64,000 nt of DNA from Octopus vulgaris (GCA_951406725.2 OX597825.1:24118001-24182000), one strand, 5' to 3'; positions 1-61,390 are shown, counted from the first letter of the stretch. The notes: generated from the sequence alone by a model not told the origin. Translations and numbers: made by a program.

Positions 1-324
1 ATTTATAAATACAAATGACTGAAAAATGCTGAGCTAACCCCGGTCACAATCAAACCCACAAATCAATGCTCACGCGGCTCCTTGCGCATCCGATTCGCCA
101 AACAATATGATGCATGGAAACTATGATGGAAGCCCGTCGTATATATATATATATATATATATATATATATATATATATATATATATATAAATTTAAAATT
201 AAGGATAAAATCTTTATAAGAAATTATCAGTAGTTAGCGTGAAAAACCTCGTAAGAGGAAAAATCTGTAAATTTTTCCACTTTGAAAATATTTATTTATA
301 TTATATAGAGGGTACTATTATTCA

Positions 325-386
325 TTGCACTGAAGAGCATAGAATGCATATTCTGCATTGATTGCGAAATCACAGGTGATATGTAA
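325..386 (+). ncRNA. Type I hammerhead ribozyme (copy 1)
   Basis: ttgca-CTGAAGA(330-336)-gca...aatgca/tgcatt...tgc-GAAA(366-369)-tcac-ag-gtga-TA(380-381)-tgtaa. Stems I, II and III all pair; predicted cleavage after A381. Confidence 0.85.
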
Positions 387-818
387 CTAAATTCTGTTTT
401 TAAATGACTTGCTTTGAAGTTTTGCATTCGGTGCAATTTGTTTATTTTAGTAGTTTTGACTGCAAGAGTCCCTACTAGCGTGCGGTACCAATGAATAATA
501 GTACCCTCTATATAATATAAATAAATATTTTCAAAGTGGAAAAATTTACAGATTTTTCCTCTTACGAGGTTTTTCACGCTAACTACTGATAATTTCTTAT
601 AAAGATTTTATCCTTAATTTTAAATTTATATTTTTCTCCTGAATAGTTCAATACTGAATTTTTATTCCGAATAGGCAGATTGTTACCGAAATGCATTGCA
701 AATAAGCCCGCCATTTTCATAGATATGTAAAGATAAACATTCGTACATGCTACGACGAATTCTACGGTTGGCTGTCGGGTGTGCTATATTGTGTTTTTTC
801 CTTACATGTCTTGAGTTC

Positions 819-882
819 GTTGCACTGAAGAGCATAGAATGCATATTCTGCATTGATTGCGAAATCACAGGTAATATGTAAC
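819..882 (+). ncRNA. Type I hammerhead ribozyme (copy 2)
   Basis: gttgca-CTGAAGA(825-831)-stem II-GAAA(861-864)-tcac-ag-gtaa-TA(875-876)-tgtaac; 6-bp stem I, one mismatch in stem III. Confidence 0.8.
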
Positions 883-2016
883 TAAATTCTGTTTTTAAAT
901 GACTTGCTTTGAAGTTTTGCATTCGGTGCAATTTGTTTATTTTAGTAGTTTTGACTGCAAGAATCCCTCCTAGCGTGCGGTACCTATGAATAATAGTACC
1001 CTCTATATAATATAAATATATATATATACATATATATATATACATATATATGCGCGCGCTGGTGTGTGTGTGTACATGTATTTGTGCTTCATTGTGTTTA
1101 TGTTTGTTCTTTGTTCTCTCCTCCACCATCGCTTGACAACCAGTGTTGATTTCTTTACTTCCCGTCAGCTAGTAGCTCTGGTGGCGATTAATCTAAGTTG
1201 TTCAGGATGGCGGCCCATCATGACCGCAGTTGAATGGCTCAAATGAAAGAAGTCTACTTCACCTTCTTTATATGCATTGAATAATTATCACTTACGCCTT
1301 CATTGTGAACAAAGTTGGGGAGTTCCTTTACCTTCGTACTCTTCTTTCCCTTTCACAGTTTCATTTCATATTTTCTATCAACCGAACTAGACATTCCGTG
1401 TTTTCATTTGCAGCAGCATTCTTTGTTTTGTTTTGTTTTTATGCTGCAATTGTCCATCCATTTTAAATTACTTTTCTTGAATTTCTCTTAACATGAATCT
1501 TGTGCATTGAGCCACTCGTAAGAGGGAAGTCTACATTTTGTTGTAATCGTAATTTTAACTCCCATCAATAAAATTGATTTGCCGCTTAAGTCGTTTAAAT
1601 CAAGCAGATAGATCATTTCAGCAGCGTCACATCATCTCAGTATAATAAGCAACAGCACAAAGAAAGATAAATCTTGTAGTTCCAAGCATTGTTTATGTTA
1701 GCGATCAAATGTAGTTTTCCCTTTTATGGACGATTCACAACAATTGATATCCTCCATTAATATTTTCATCACAAAGATGCCCAGCGCATAGTTTTCTCTT
1801 GTGATAAATATAAATGAGCTGTGTGTGTGTGTAAACGCACGCAGCCTAGTGATTAGAGAACGCTGTGTTCACGATCACAATTTTGTGGGTTTCATTCATG
1901 ATTCGGGTAGCGCGGTGTGATTTTGAGCAAGGCATTTAATTATATTAATGAACTCATGTGTTTTAATAGGTCTTCGAAGTAGCACACTTGGTCCACTAAC
2001 ACTTAGGTAGAGACAA

Positions 2017-57515: not shown

Positions 57516-57725
57516 GCCGTTCAAGAATTTGGATCTGGAGATCTCCATTTCCAGCGACTTCGAGGGCCACCTCCTTATGCTGTCGGGTGTCAGCCAAGAG
57601 CCCTCGACTACAACAAGACGACCAAAGTATTTTTTCCCAAGGTCCGGGGTCTCCCGCCCCTAAGCCCTAGACCATCACCTAATCACCCTTACCCGTCTTG
57701 TTGCTTAACAACAACAACAACAATA
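57516..57725 (+). mobile_element. Short retroposon with (CAA)n tail, containing an HDV-like ribozyme remnant
   Basis: 13-bp duplication aagtgattgcaac at 57503-57515 and 57726-57738; (caa)n tail; internal stems tcgagggc/gccctcga and caacaagacg/cgtcttgttg. Confidence 0.65.
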
Positions 57726-60223
57726 AAGTGATTGCAACAAACACGCGGATTAAAAATAAATAAATGGTGCTGATTGTATATATTTTTGTATCTCAATAAA
57801 TTATTATAATTCCAAAATTTGTTATTCTAGTTCATTTTATTAGATTATATTTTTAACACCAAATGTAGTTTTGCTGGAATGGTCTTGGCGTTGAAGAGTT
57901 CTTATGTTGAATTTTATTGTCTTGGAAATGTCAACAAACCAAGTGGATTAAATATTTGGTAACTTGTTTAAATGTCATTAAATAATCACTGATAGGTCGT
58001 TTACCGCTCCGAAATGATGACAAGGAATTCATTTTCAAATGGCCGAATAGATTAGGTATCCGGCAAGTTACTCAAAGGTCATTATAAGCTTTATAATAAG
58101 ATTTTCTGTCTTGTGGTAGGGATTTATTCTCATTGACTTAAAACTATTAAACCACAGCTGACCACGAACATATAAGAGGCACTCAAATGGATGAAGAATC
58201 AATGGAATTTGAAATTAGAACGTTACCTGCAAAAGACTGACATCTAAAAGAGATCGTGGTAGAAGATTAAAATAAAATCCAAGAAGAGATTTTCGGAATT
58301 TACTCTGTCGTAGTCAAAGACATGTTTAAGCATTAATAAGATTGGAGAATCATTTGCAACATACGAAAGTGTGCAGTCGTTTGTAAAACCAGGAATATTA
58401 AATAAGACCATTTTGAGATAACGTAAAATATTAGTATTCGACGCGTAATTTTGTTTGTGCTCAAGAATTCGAGAATTTATATGAATAAATTTACAAGATG
58501 AAAGTATGGATGTTAATACACACACACACACACACACACACACACACACACAGAGAGAGAGAGAGAGAGAGAGAGAGAGAGAGAGAGAGAGACAGACAGA
58601 CAGACAGACAGACAGACAGAGGCAGAGACAGACAGATATTAGAGATACACGTAGGAATAGAGTTAGATCAATCTTGATTTTGCATGTCTGTGTTAACTCA
58701 CGTGTTTTCTCACATGTAGCCATTCACACACACACACACACACACACACACACACACACGAGGCACTAATAATAGTACACAGGTAAAGGCTTATTTGCAT
58801 GCATGTTACATTTACATGTCTTGTATAAAACGCACTTTTTCTCACATACGTCTACTGACAAACGCACGCACACACACACACATATACACACATACACACA
58901 GACACTTATATGCACACTCATTTACATACATGCAGAAATATCCTTTTAAAAACGTTATGCACGACGCAGCTCTGTAGACACATACGGTATACACTCAATC
59001 TCAATAATCCCAAATGCAGTTTACCAGGAATTCACGCAACCGTTGTGTAAATCCGAAAACTTTTAAGCTATGACAAATCAATTCTTACTTCGCAACAATA
59101 TGTTATCACAAATTTACAGAGAGAGAGAGAGAGAGAGAGAGAGAGAGAGAGAGAGAGAGAGAGACAGTCAAGCACTTAATTCCCTCTTCTCGTTATTTTA
59201 TTGAATTATTTTTAAGAAGCAGAAACAATTTTTGAAGAATGTGAAATATAAAAAGGAAAATTACTGAATAGTCAATACATTAAGACATTAAGACAAAAAT
59301 AGTATAAATAATCTCGAAGTTTGTTTACAGACCATGTTGGCAATAGTAAATACTCTAATTAGTTATCTGATGTGACATTGCTATCGCAGCTGAAAAAAAT
59401 GATAGTTTACTTTGGTCATTGACTTTCTCACCCAAAGACTACAAATTAATTACCAGAGAGCAAGTGGTGTTCAGTAAACAAGGCACCAACAGCAAAAGAC
59501 AAACAAAAGACTGTTATGCGTCGGTATTGCGTTAACGGTACCAAAACATTGTCACGACATAAACGTTTGCTCCCAAGATGTTACTGGACACATAAGTGAG
59601 GTAAATAACATACTTAACGTAATTTTAACTGCGCCATCTCTCAATCTCTCCTTTTCGCTCTATCTCTCTCGTTCTCACCCGCCCTTCTCACACACACAAA
59701 GAAATTGTTTTCCGAGCACTTGTGGAGTTCACTATCTAATGGTAATAAATGGTCAAGTTTACTGCTTATTCTAATAATATTGCAACTTCCAGATTATGAA
59801 AATAGCATTCAGATAAACTAAATACCCTCACACTAACACACACATACATACACATACATACACCTTCTCGTACAAACATACATGAACACATACGCACACG
59901 CACATACACACGGATGTATATATAATCTTACAGACGGAGCTTCGAAATATTGCCAGAAGTGGGTGACGTCAGATGGATCACGCCATCTACTGGCAAAATG
60001 TCGAGGTTACTGTCAATAAAATTATTAATATCCAAATCTACACATGAAGAAACTTCCTTCTTTGGTTAATGTTCAGAAAGGTTATGCTTCTAAAAACATG
60101 CATTCGTATGTATGCATGTATGTATCTATGTGTATATATATATATATATATATATATATATATATATATATATATATATATGTATTTTTATGTATGGTCT
60201 TGGCGTTGAAGAGTTGAAGGCAA

Positions 60224-60395
60224 GGCGTAGGAGTGGCTGTGTGGTAAGTAGCTTGCTTACGAACCACATGATTCCGGGTTCAGTCCCACTGCGTGGCACC
60301 TTGGACAGGTGTCTTCTACTATTGCCTCAGGCCGACCAAAGCCTTATGAGTGGATTTGGTAAACCGAAACTAAAAGAAGCTCGTCGTATATATGT
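60224..60395 (+). mobile_element. SINE family A, 5' half
   Basis: Head through gaagctcgtcgtatata, then unrelated sequence. Confidence 0.85.
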
Positions 60396-60736
60396 ATATG
60401 TAGGGTTCTTACGAACTAACCCTGAAATCGGTCCGATATGGTAATAATGGAATTTTTTAGAAATTTCTGTCGACCTTTTTTAGAGTAGCGTGCGTATTGT
60501 GAAAAATTATATGGTTATGGACAATAGTTCCAATTTCGGCATATTTGGCATTAGAAATTTTTTCGTTTGCCCTTATTTATAAGTTGTTAATAATTTTAAC
60601 CTTTAAAGGATTTTTTAATATGCTGACCATTGACAAAATATTTTTTCGAAAAAATCTTATCCTACATTAAATATATATATAAATATGTATATATATATAT
60701 ATATATATATATATATATATATATATATATATATAT

Positions 60737-61390
60737 AACGGGAAGCTTTATGAAAATAAACAAAAGACGAAGGCAGGTGGAAAACAAACGAACAATTGTA
60801 TTAGTATGGCGCTCAGGAAATATAAATAAAACAAGTCTTTAACGTTTCGAGCCTACGCTCTTCAACAGAAAGATACACAGAGAGAGAAAAACACAGAAAG
60901 AAGGAGAGAAAAAAAATGCGTGCAGTAGCTAACGAATCAACATGGCGATCTGATTTCGGCCAGAGGTCAAAGATCAAACATGAGACGCGAGAGCGAAATA
61001 AGGGGAGATAATAGGGTTGATAAAAGGGTTGAGGGACCAGCTAATAGTGCGTAGGAGGGGTCTGGATGTGTGTATGTATAGGGTTGGTGTATGTATTAGT
61101 ATGTATAAGGGTGTCGTGTGTGTGTGTGTGTGTATGAAAGAGTATTAGTGCGTAGGATTGGTCTGGACGTGCGTATGTATGGGGTTGGTGTATGTATTAG
61201 TATGTATTAGTATGTATTAGTATGTATTAGTACGTATTGGTATGTATAAGTGTGTGTGTGTGTGTATGAGAGAGTATAAGTGCGTATGCGGGGTCTGGAC
61301 GTGTGTATGTATAGGGTTGGTGTATGTATTAGTATGTACTAGTATGTATTAGTACGTATTAGTATGTATTAGTTGGTGTGTGTATTAGTA
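60737..61390 (-). mobile_element. Hammerhead-bearing element related to 32052-32244, with internal minisatellite
   Basis: Starts at a (TA)n edge; three ~100-135-bp units beginning agtgcgta..ggtctgga near 61045, 61147 and 61279. Confidence 0.7.
60836..60873 (-). ncRNA. Minimal hammerhead-like ribozyme, variant core
   Basis: tcttt-CTGTTGA-A-gagc-gtag-gctc-GAAA-cg-TT-aaaga; 5-bp stem I, palindromic ACGT in place of stem III. Confidence 0.68.

What the first reader, a model, noticed from the sequence alone, without database searches (positions are those of the whole stretch)
185..60873. Window-wide pattern: six intact-looking and three partial hammerhead motifs from 3-5 unrelated families, mostly at (TA)n edges
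Seen: motifs at 325, 819, 10430, 29511, about 29850 (half), 31905, 32143, 48565 and 60836. In most the ribozyme points toward an adjacent TA-rich microsatellite 25-140 nt away. No Penelope ORF is present in the window. Inference: a very abundant and diverse population of microsatellite-targeting, ribozyme-bearing non-autonomous retroelements that could cut host pre-mRNA if intronic or produce small circular RNAs.
Basis: partly seen in the sequence, partly recalled or inferred. Interest (0 to 1): 0.75.

Follow-up and report, generated by a model that had tools for sequence, protein, structure and literature searches.

The report
Penelope tails with A6U hammerheads
Eight of the nine listed hammerhead (self-cutting RNA) motifs belong to repeat families, mostly broken-off tail ends of known Penelope-type jumping genes sitting in TA repeats plus one small non-coding parasite, and the commonest family carries a changed core letter that likely slows cutting, which offers a test of what these ribozymes are for.

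Summary
The pattern is real, but it is mostly not non-autonomous elements. Eight of nine motifs belong to genome-wide repeat families; 48565 is single-copy and unverified. The nine come from seven insertions.

60836 is the 3' end of a young autonomous Penelope-like element: an intact 1076-aa RT plus GIY-YIG frame in 4.48-kb tandems elsewhere in the genome. 32143 and 31905 are relatives of it. 29511/29850 is the tail of a Hydra-clade element. Only 325/819 is a retrozyme-type ~490-nt unit, and it is rare: 207 exact motif hits against 20,123 for the 60836 clan.

TA targeting holds: 28 of 40 copies have (TA)n within 200 nt 3' (background 12-22%). Two details go beyond the papers I could read. First, 18,051 of 20,123 clan copies read CUG-pyrimidine-N-GA (99 of 100 listed have A6U) and only 226 keep A6. 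Second, two-armed insertions pair one 'long' with one 'short' fixed end in three families (24/30, 5/5, 6/6).

Cleavage, circles and intronic position are untested. This scan has reported the same system and the A6U core before, on other DNA.

The parts
140..189 (.). (TA)25 tract at the left end of the family A insertion
185..327 (-). Family A inverted arm (unit positions 169-311), ending at the 'long' site (311) in (TA)n
   Evidence: 100% identical to 489-631
321..815 (+). Family A unit (495 nt here, about 487 in other copies), non-coding; canonical type I hammerhead at 325-386, core 330, predicted cut after 381
816..1023 (+). Family A second, partial unit (1-208), ending at the 'short' site (208) in (TA)n; hammerhead 820-881 with a helix III mismatch
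10370..10520 (-). Old family D 3' end; decayed hammerhead (core 10491; G12 and 3' strand of helix II lost). Relatives show a long-helix-II type I motif with a palindromic helix III
29430..29487 (.). (TA)29 tract at the 3' end of the family B copy
29488..29735 (-). Family B: 3' end of a Hydra-clade Penelope-like element; hammerhead 29511-29599 (core 29593, U10.1.U11.1, long helix II, predicted cut at 29517)
29752..29918 (+). Family B inverted arm of the same insertion; 5' half of the hammerhead (core 29857), broken by an 18-bp tandem repeat
31736..31803 (.). (TA)34 tract at the 3' end of the family E copy
31804..32020 (-). Family E 3' end; minimal hammerhead 31905-31939 with U4C shared by nearly all family copies fetched; sister of family C by motif layout and a shared downstream word (inferred)
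32051..32243 (-). Older family C relative (71-74% to the young element); minimal hammerhead 32141-32178 with A6U; ends in the (TA) tract 32033-32050
48565..48635 (-). Orphan hammerhead-like boxes (core 48630); single-copy, unverified
56537..56693 (.).
60688..60737 (.). (TA)n tract at the 3' end of the young family C copy
60738..61659 (-). 5'-truncated 3' end of the young autonomous Penelope-like family C; minimal hammerhead 60836-60873 (core 60868, A6U, predicted cut at 60841), identical to the motif in the tandem ORF-bearing copies
61385..61659 (-). Last ~90 low-complexity codons of the family C ORF (no RT or endonuclease residues)

Best explanation
Most of these motifs lie in 5'-truncated 3' ends of Penelope-like retrotransposons (shown for families C and B, likely for E, D and H) or in a ~490-nt non-coding tandem unit (family A) that such elements likely copy, and they were likely pasted into (TA)n by target-primed reverse transcription from fixed internal start sites. 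Steps: (1) a tandem copy is transcribed (inferred). (2) The element's GIY-YIG endonuclease nicks (TA)n (inferred from junctions and from PMC8557442). (3) Reverse transcription starts 30-250 nt 3' of the hammerhead at one of one or two fixed sites, each a short TAT/ATAT word (sites shown; pairing with the target inferred). (4) Most copies stop early, so only the hammerhead-bearing end is left (shown). (5) When both DNA ends prime, one uses the long and the other the short site, giving two-armed inverted insertions (pattern shown, cause inferred). The hammerheads would trim tandem transcripts to unit length, and for family A would allow circles. The A6U motif of family C is likely slow, or needs the element's protein.
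For: Family C: 40 of 40 scored hits are 100% identical over 303 nt. Head-to-tail 4.48-kb units; an intact frame with RVT_1, DKG, a C-X4-C-X2-C linker and YIG. 381 homologues at E<=0.001; the 120 listed nearly all carry RVT_1/PF26215 and some PF01541. 26 of 30 copies go straight into (TA)n at one base; 4 continue into the next unit. Family B: copies share about 2.7 kb upstream and reach a frame with the DKT, CxCX5C, CxxC and CxH motifs that define Hydra. 4 of 14 long loci fetched for that endonuclease carry a >=75% match to the B tail, and 3 more a weaker one. Family A: in 51 distinct insertions the aligned sequence maps onto one unit (49 with <=31 nt unexplained), up to 1.7 passes; 72 of 81 3' ends lie at unit 208 or 311, and 60 of those 72 run into (TA)n. 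Long+short pairing: A 24 of 30 two-armed insertions, none long/long or short/short (13 of 16 among loci fetched with a query lacking both ends); B 5 of 5; H 6 of 6. (TA)5 lies within 200 nt 3' in 28 of 40 copies taken by list order from one contig; 16 of 40 on the 5' side; background 12-22%. Helix I and II letters covary between families C, E and a third minimal family.
Against: No cleavage, transcript end or circle was observed. No run was on record as RNA, and contigs cannot show ends. None of 8 motifs folds into the three-way junction as its minimum-energy structure (z -2.2 to +0.7), and two-strand folds did not give the active dimer. No parent ORF was found for A, D, E or H, and no intact full-length Hydra ORF among the 14 loci fetched. 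The one Penelope enzyme studied in vitro starts at RNA sites not homologous to the target (PMC11167929), which does not match the microhomology reading. Loci came from best-scoring hits, so young copies are over-represented.
Confidence: 0.88

Rival explanations
1. One reading: all families are non-autonomous, retrozyme-like elements that make small circular RNAs and may cut host pre-mRNA.
For: Family A fits: closed ~490-nt unit, canonical hammerhead in each unit, more-than-unit copies, unit folds better than shuffles (z -3.3). E, D and H were seen only as short pieces.
Against: C and B extend into Penelope ORFs. A has 207 exact motif hits vs 2,016 for B and 20,123 for the C clan (different patterns, so a rough comparison). 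No host exon recognised.
Confidence: 0.07
2. The A6U motif of family C is a dead ribozyme. It spread because Penelope transposition does not need cleavage, and the rest of the motif is kept by recent descent or as a protein-binding fold.
For: Changes at position 6 give low activity (PMC3088659, passages). Hammerhead mutants did not impair insertion in vitro (PMC11167929). U6 lets the core pair with the AACG strand into an inactive rod in the predicted fold. The N7 classes track subfamilies only partly: flank identity within classes 0.70-0.91, between classes 0.68-0.80.
Against: Across copies whose flanks differ by 20-30%, changes fall at N7 (all four bases) and H17 (A 32, U 8, G 0 of 40), the positions a working hammerhead leaves free, while C3 (98/100) and G5 (100/100) stay (hand count, 87). 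G8 onward was fixed by my pattern and is not evidence.
Confidence: 0.4
3. The motifs are chance matches in AT-rich, microsatellite-rich DNA.
For: The relaxed generic scan had 3 artefacts in 6 hits. 48630 is single-copy. 44 (TA)8 tracts in the window make proximity common.
Against: Tens of thousands of genome-wide hits against 0-1 for controls; 3 vs 0.03 in shuffles; fixed place in Penelope elements.
Confidence: 0.02

Closest known systems
Minimal type I hammerheads in pLTRs of metazoan Penelope-like elements (Cervera and de la Pena 2014, PMC4209133; parts 1-2 of 4 read, supplement file 2 searched, file 1 not searchable)
   Same: Extra nucleotide after A9, G10.1-C11.1, two-base palindromic helix III, thousands of single truncated copies, one motif in each pLTR of full elements (families C, E).
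   Different: Family C has A6U in about 90% of copies, and in the tandem ORF-bearing copies; family E has U4C. The core variant in the parts read is U3-A8.
Neptune/Nematis-type EN+ Penelope-like elements (as described in Craig et al. 2021, PMC8557442; passages, section 11 and supplement searches)
   Same: Single ORF, RT then CX2-5CxxC linker then GIY-YIG with CCHH-type residues, DKG motif, tandem units, microsatellite targeting (family C).
   Different: Clade not placed by a tree; A6U hammerhead; 1076-aa ORF with proline-rich insert and tail.
Hydra-clade Penelope-like elements, including Hydra-1_Obim (Craig et al. 2021; section 11, supplement rows)
   Same: DKT, CxCX5C linker, CxxC and CxH motifs, hammerhead near the 3' end, (TA)n target (family B).
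   Different: About 2.9 kb between ORF and end, with ~850-nt internal repeats (the clade is described as generally <3 kb in all); ~65-nt helix II with U10.1.U11.1, whereas the hammerhead listed for Hydra-1_oBim has an 8-nt loop; tail about 100 nt.
Metazoan non-LTR retrozymes (Cervera and de la Pena 2020, PMC7229834, passages; Li, Clavereau and Pollet 2026, 10.64898/2026.07.22.740005, parts 1-2 of 5)
   Same: AT-rich non-coding tandem unit with a type I hammerhead per unit, proposed Penelope mobilisation (family A).
   Different: Copies end at two fixed internal sites in (TA)n and form two-armed inversions; 'microsatellite' and 'target site' do not occur in the main text of the 2020 paper. Cleavage and circles are not shown here.
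Poseidon element PAc of Anolis (Frangieh et al. 2024, PMC11167929; parts 1-2 of 4)
   Same: Two internal reverse-transcription start sites that produce the optional tail; both DNA strands cut and extended; protein-assisted hammerhead.
   Different: There the tail is described as 30-40 nt and the start is not homologous to the target. Here the sites are 90-155 nt apart, sit on TAT/ATAT words, and the two arms use different sites.
Natural hammerhead core variants A6C, U4C and U10.1.U11.1 (Perreault et al. 2011, PMC3088659; Naghdi et al. 2020, PMC7151607; passages)
   Same: U4C (family E) and U10.1.U11.1 (families B, D) are already described as natural and active.
   Different: A6C is a single phage case with low, Mn-favoured activity; A6U in about 18,000 copies of a young element is not mentioned in the passages read.

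Membership tests
EN+ Penelope-like element (family C) | Single ORF with RT followed by a GIY-YIG endonuclease | tested here: met
   Intact 1076-aa frame in L114; RVT_1 E 3.7e-7; YIG motif by inspection (Pfam gave no GIY-YIG hit on this protein); homologues carry PF01541
EN+ Penelope-like element (family C) | Tandem or partial-tandem copies forming pLTRs with a hammerhead | tested here: met
   4.48-kb head-to-tail units; motif 750 nt before the ATG and again after the stop
Neptune or Nematis clade (family C) | CX2-5CxxC linker, DKG, CCHH-type residues | tested here: met
   By inspection of the protein against PMC8557442 passages
Neptune or Nematis clade (family C) | Phylogenetic placement with named members | not tested
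   No named reference proteins in hand
Hydra clade (family B) | DKT motif, CxCX5C linker, CxxC and CxH motifs, no CCHH | tested here: met
   Seen across decayed frames in L281-L294; L287-L290 also carry the B tail. Pieces come from different copies; RVT_1 only weak (E 5e-4)
Hydra clade (family B) | Generally shorter than 3 kb | tested here: not met
   About 2.9 kb from ORF end to element end alone; the paper says 'generally'
Hydra clade (family B) | Insertion into (TA)n | tested here: met
   Most ends at 118-131 and several at 209-220 run into TA repeats
Non-LTR retrozyme (family A) | Non-coding head-to-tail unit with a type I hammerhead in consecutive units | tested here: met
   no Penelope protein match in family A loci
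Non-LTR retrozyme (family A) | Self-cleavage and abundant circular RNA | not testable with these tools
   Only contigs of runs guessed to be RNA
Minimal hammerhead (families C, E) | Core C3 U4 G5 A6 N7 G8 A9 | tested here: not met
   C: pyrimidine at 6 in 18,051 and A in 226 of 20,123; E: C at position 4
Minimal hammerhead (families C, E) | Extra base after A9, G10.1-C11.1, GAAA, palindromic 15.2-16.2, U-H site, helix I | tested here: met
   the window's 31934 and 32173 copies have lost the palindrome
Minimal hammerhead (families C, E) | Cleavage as a dimer | not testable with these tools
   Energy folding did not give the active dimer, which is no assay
Hammerhead of any type (48630) | Three helices around the core, with family support | tested here: inconclusive
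   Boxes and a possible helix II present; single-copy; failed descriptors

The most novel reading that the evidence does not exclude
The most abundant hammerhead in this genome is a natural A6U core mutant that a still-active Penelope element keeps under selection as a deliberately slow, self-locked ribozyme released by the element's own protein. The strict long+short pairing of insertion ends in three unrelated families records a paired enzyme that primes the two cut DNA strands at two different preset RNA sites.
Probability: 0.3. Interest if true: 0.65.

Novelty: new variant of a known kind. Interest (0 to 1): 0.4.

Why it matters
What Penelope hammerheads do is open: Craig et al. call their function unclear, and Frangieh et al. 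found cleavage dispensable in vitro. A young family with an intact protein and a family-wide change at a 'fixed' core base is a ready natural test, with A6 sister subfamilies as controls. The long+short rule gives an in vivo footprint for models of how Penelope enzymes copy both strands, and suggests which enzyme type moves retrozymes (A shares ~100-nt tails with the Hydra family B; inferred). Practically, standard descriptors miss the largest hammerhead family in this genome. The window-wide pattern itself is expected biology.

Tried and rejected
Rfam scan: only microsatellite-driven microRNA matches; no hammerhead among the rows shown.

Generic relaxed descriptor: too noisy, 3 of 6 hits were GAT repeats.

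Energy folding of single motifs and of two strands: not informative for hammerhead folds.

48630: no relatives by DNA search or by structure pattern.

Parent ORFs for A, D, E, H: none by tblastn or by a profile from 120 homologues. That profile also missed the Hydra ORF, so these blanks are weak. The Hydra endonuclease fragment found no scored homologue in the protein database but 15,537 candidates in the genome.

Expression: no RNA holder listed. Contigs of four runs guessed to be RNA cover family A and some stop at the same two end sites; this is not taken as evidence of transcription. No read data were obtained for family C.

Host gene: 129 of 132 unique frames of 55 aa or more were scanned in one call, with nothing above a curated cut-off; two others are Tc1/mariner transposase pieces. 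Short exons would be missed, so intronic position stays open.

A reversed box order at 56627-56575 looked like a permuted hammerhead. It proved to be two arms of an inverted insertion of an ordinary type I family.

N7 as a subfamily marker: only partly.

Literature: searches 'hammerhead+Penelope+A6U' (0), 'hammerhead+A6U+core' (1 listed, a twister paper), 'hammerhead+retrotransposon+CUGUNGA' (0), 'octopus+Penelope+hammerhead'. The Octopus vulgaris repeat paper PMC13282606 has no 'ribozyme' or 'hammerhead' in its main text. Lunse et al. 2017 on Penelope hammerhead variants could not be read (only its title seen) and may already list A6U; bioRxiv supplements and one supplement of PMC4209133 were not seen.

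
Full report
Setting. The window is G000:C12:24118001-24182000 of a 2.8-Gb animal assembly, very rich in microsatellites (131 tandem-repeat rows; 44 (TA)8 tracts). It is probably an octopus. That is inference from size and repeat types (recalled) and from earlier scan notes, not a tool result.

Checking the motifs. A strict type I descriptor finds only 330 (shuffles 0-0.15). A generic relaxed scan adds 29593 and 60868 but also three GAT-repeat artefacts (6 vs 1.55 in shuffles). A minimal descriptor modelled on Penelope hammerheads, with positions 4 and 6 relaxed, finds 31934, 32173 and 60868 against 0.03 in shuffles, and 9 against 0.07 in 399 kb of window plus flanks. 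825 has an intact core and a damaged helix III. 29857 is a half. 10491 is a decayed copy of an old family whose relatives show a full motif. 48630 is single-copy and unproven. So eight of nine are family-supported, in seven insertions counting the orphan. 'Six intact' overstates it: one is textbook, two match their family's full form (29593, 60868), three carry private damage. Energy folding supports none of them individually.

Family C (60836; older relative at 32143). All 40 scored genomic hits are 100% identical to 60738-61040. Two loci hold 4.48-kb head-to-tail units. L114 has an intact 1076-aa frame with RVT_1, DKG, a C-X4-C-X2-C linker and a C-terminal YIG motif; the L113 units have frameshifts. 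381 homologues were found. This is an autonomous endonuclease-bearing Penelope-like element of Neptune/Nematis type. The window holds its last 922 nt, including about 90 codons of the ORF tail. Of 30 loci, 26 pass from the same base into (TA)n and 4 continue into the next unit, whose sequence there begins with a short TA word. A 20-nt word from the hammerhead occurs 20,123 times (control 0). In 40 copies taken by list order from contig C1, (TA)5 lies within 200 nt 3' in 28 and 5' in 16; background is 12-22%.

The A6U core. Of the 20,123, 18,051 read CUG-pyrimidine-N-GA (99 of the 100 listed have U) and 226 keep A6. The five motifs in the two tandem ORF-bearing loci all have U6. A looser pattern that also catches family E gives 38,859 hits vs 1. 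By hand count of its first 100 rows, position 3 is C in 98, position 5 is G in 100, position 6 is U 64, A 33, C 3, position 7 takes all four bases, and position 17 is G in 3. Flanks differ by 20-30% among copies, although N7 marks subfamilies only partly. Change is thus concentrated where a working hammerhead tolerates it, apart from position 6. Against function: position-6 changes give low activity (PMC3088659, passages), and U6 allows an inactive rod in the predicted fold. I found no natural A6U in print, but could not read Lunse et al. 2017.

Family E (31905). 2,957 candidates. Same minimal layout with U4C in nearly all of the 25 loci fetched, and nearly all end in (TA)n. U4C is a known viroid variant. 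E sits against the older C copy, with a TA tract between them. No parent ORF was seen in 1.5-kb flanks, apart from weak profile hits in one locus.

Family B (29511 and 29850). One two-armed insertion. 2,016 pattern hits (control 0). Copies share about 2.7 kb of AT-rich upstream sequence with internal repeats and then reach an endonuclease C-terminus, which has 15,537 candidates in the genome. Fourteen long loci show the DKT, CxCX5C, CxxC and CxH motifs that define the Hydra clade; four carry a close B tail. No intact full-length ORF was among them. A Hydra element with (TA)n preference is already listed for Octopus bimaculoides.

Family A (325 and 819). One insertion from 185 to 1023: an inverted arm, a full 495-nt unit and a partial second unit, both outer ends in (TA)n. 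In 51 distinct insertions (60 loci less 9 duplicates) nearly all sequence maps on the unit, up to 1.7 passes, and 72 of 81 3' ends lie at unit position 208 or 311. No Penelope protein matches its flanks. It fits the non-LTR retrozymes. It is rare: 207 exact motif hits.

The long+short rule. Of 30 two-armed A insertions, 24 have one end at 208 and one at 311, none has the same site twice, and 6 have an irregular end. Among loci fetched with a query holding neither end it is 13 of 16. Family B has ends clustered about 90-100 nt apart and 5 of 5 two-armed copies pair long with short. [quoted passage not shown] The longer tails and the strict pairing across families are what this adds.

Mechanism. 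Shown: family membership, ORFs, fixed ends, TA junctions, end pairing, core variants. Inferred: nicking of (TA)n, priming at short TA words, trimming of tandem transcripts by the hammerheads, circles for A, slow or protein-assisted cutting for A6U. Untested: any cleavage, expression, intronic position (one search found no exon).

Verdict. Real, a known kind of system (Penelope ends plus a retrozyme in microsatellites), with a core variant and an end rule worth testing. The scan has recorded the same system, the two-armed retrozyme and the A6U core on other DNA; those notes are not independent support.

Noticed in passing
window 56537-56693: Tenth, half hammerhead: a two-armed mini-insertion of family H (canonical type I motif in 25 of 29 cores seen; 1,956 candidates), between two TA tracts. 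Parent element not identified.
   Followed up: partly
window 25379-26468 (+) and 40147-40913 (-): Two decayed Tc1/mariner-type DNA transposons (DDE_3 and HTH matches); the first is flanked by TA tracts at 25282.
   Followed up: partly
window 57422-57661: Weak match to the family C protein (E 0.06), not recovered by the profile or Pfam; probably chance or a very old RT piece.
   Followed up: partly
L191:1719 (+) and L195 (-): A further minimal hammerhead family with canonical A6, a 5-bp helix II and fully different helix letters; useful as covariation support and as an assay control.
   Followed up: no
L142, L144, L145: Sister Penelope subfamilies with the same loop but A6, carrying RT at 65-85% identity to family C; they would date the A6U change.
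   Followed up: partly
L281-L294: Hydra-clade ORFs here carry long asparagine-rich inserts before the linker, and several different long-helix hammerheads with 6-nt palindromic helix III.
   Followed up: no
L255-L260: The family B region between ORF and hammerhead is about 2.9 kb, built of diverged ~850-nt repeats.
   Followed up: no
L292:8097-8552: An older relative of family A at 70-75% identity, also two-armed.
   Followed up: no
window 321-1003, runs X5 and X8: A>G is the commonest difference in contigs of two runs guessed to be RNA (13 and 11 places); could be editing or simply other copies or species.
   Followed up: no
window 14363-15072 and 47534-48151: Very long trinucleotide arrays (CTA/CCA mix, GAT) that create spurious open frames and false hammerhead-box hits.
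   Followed up: no
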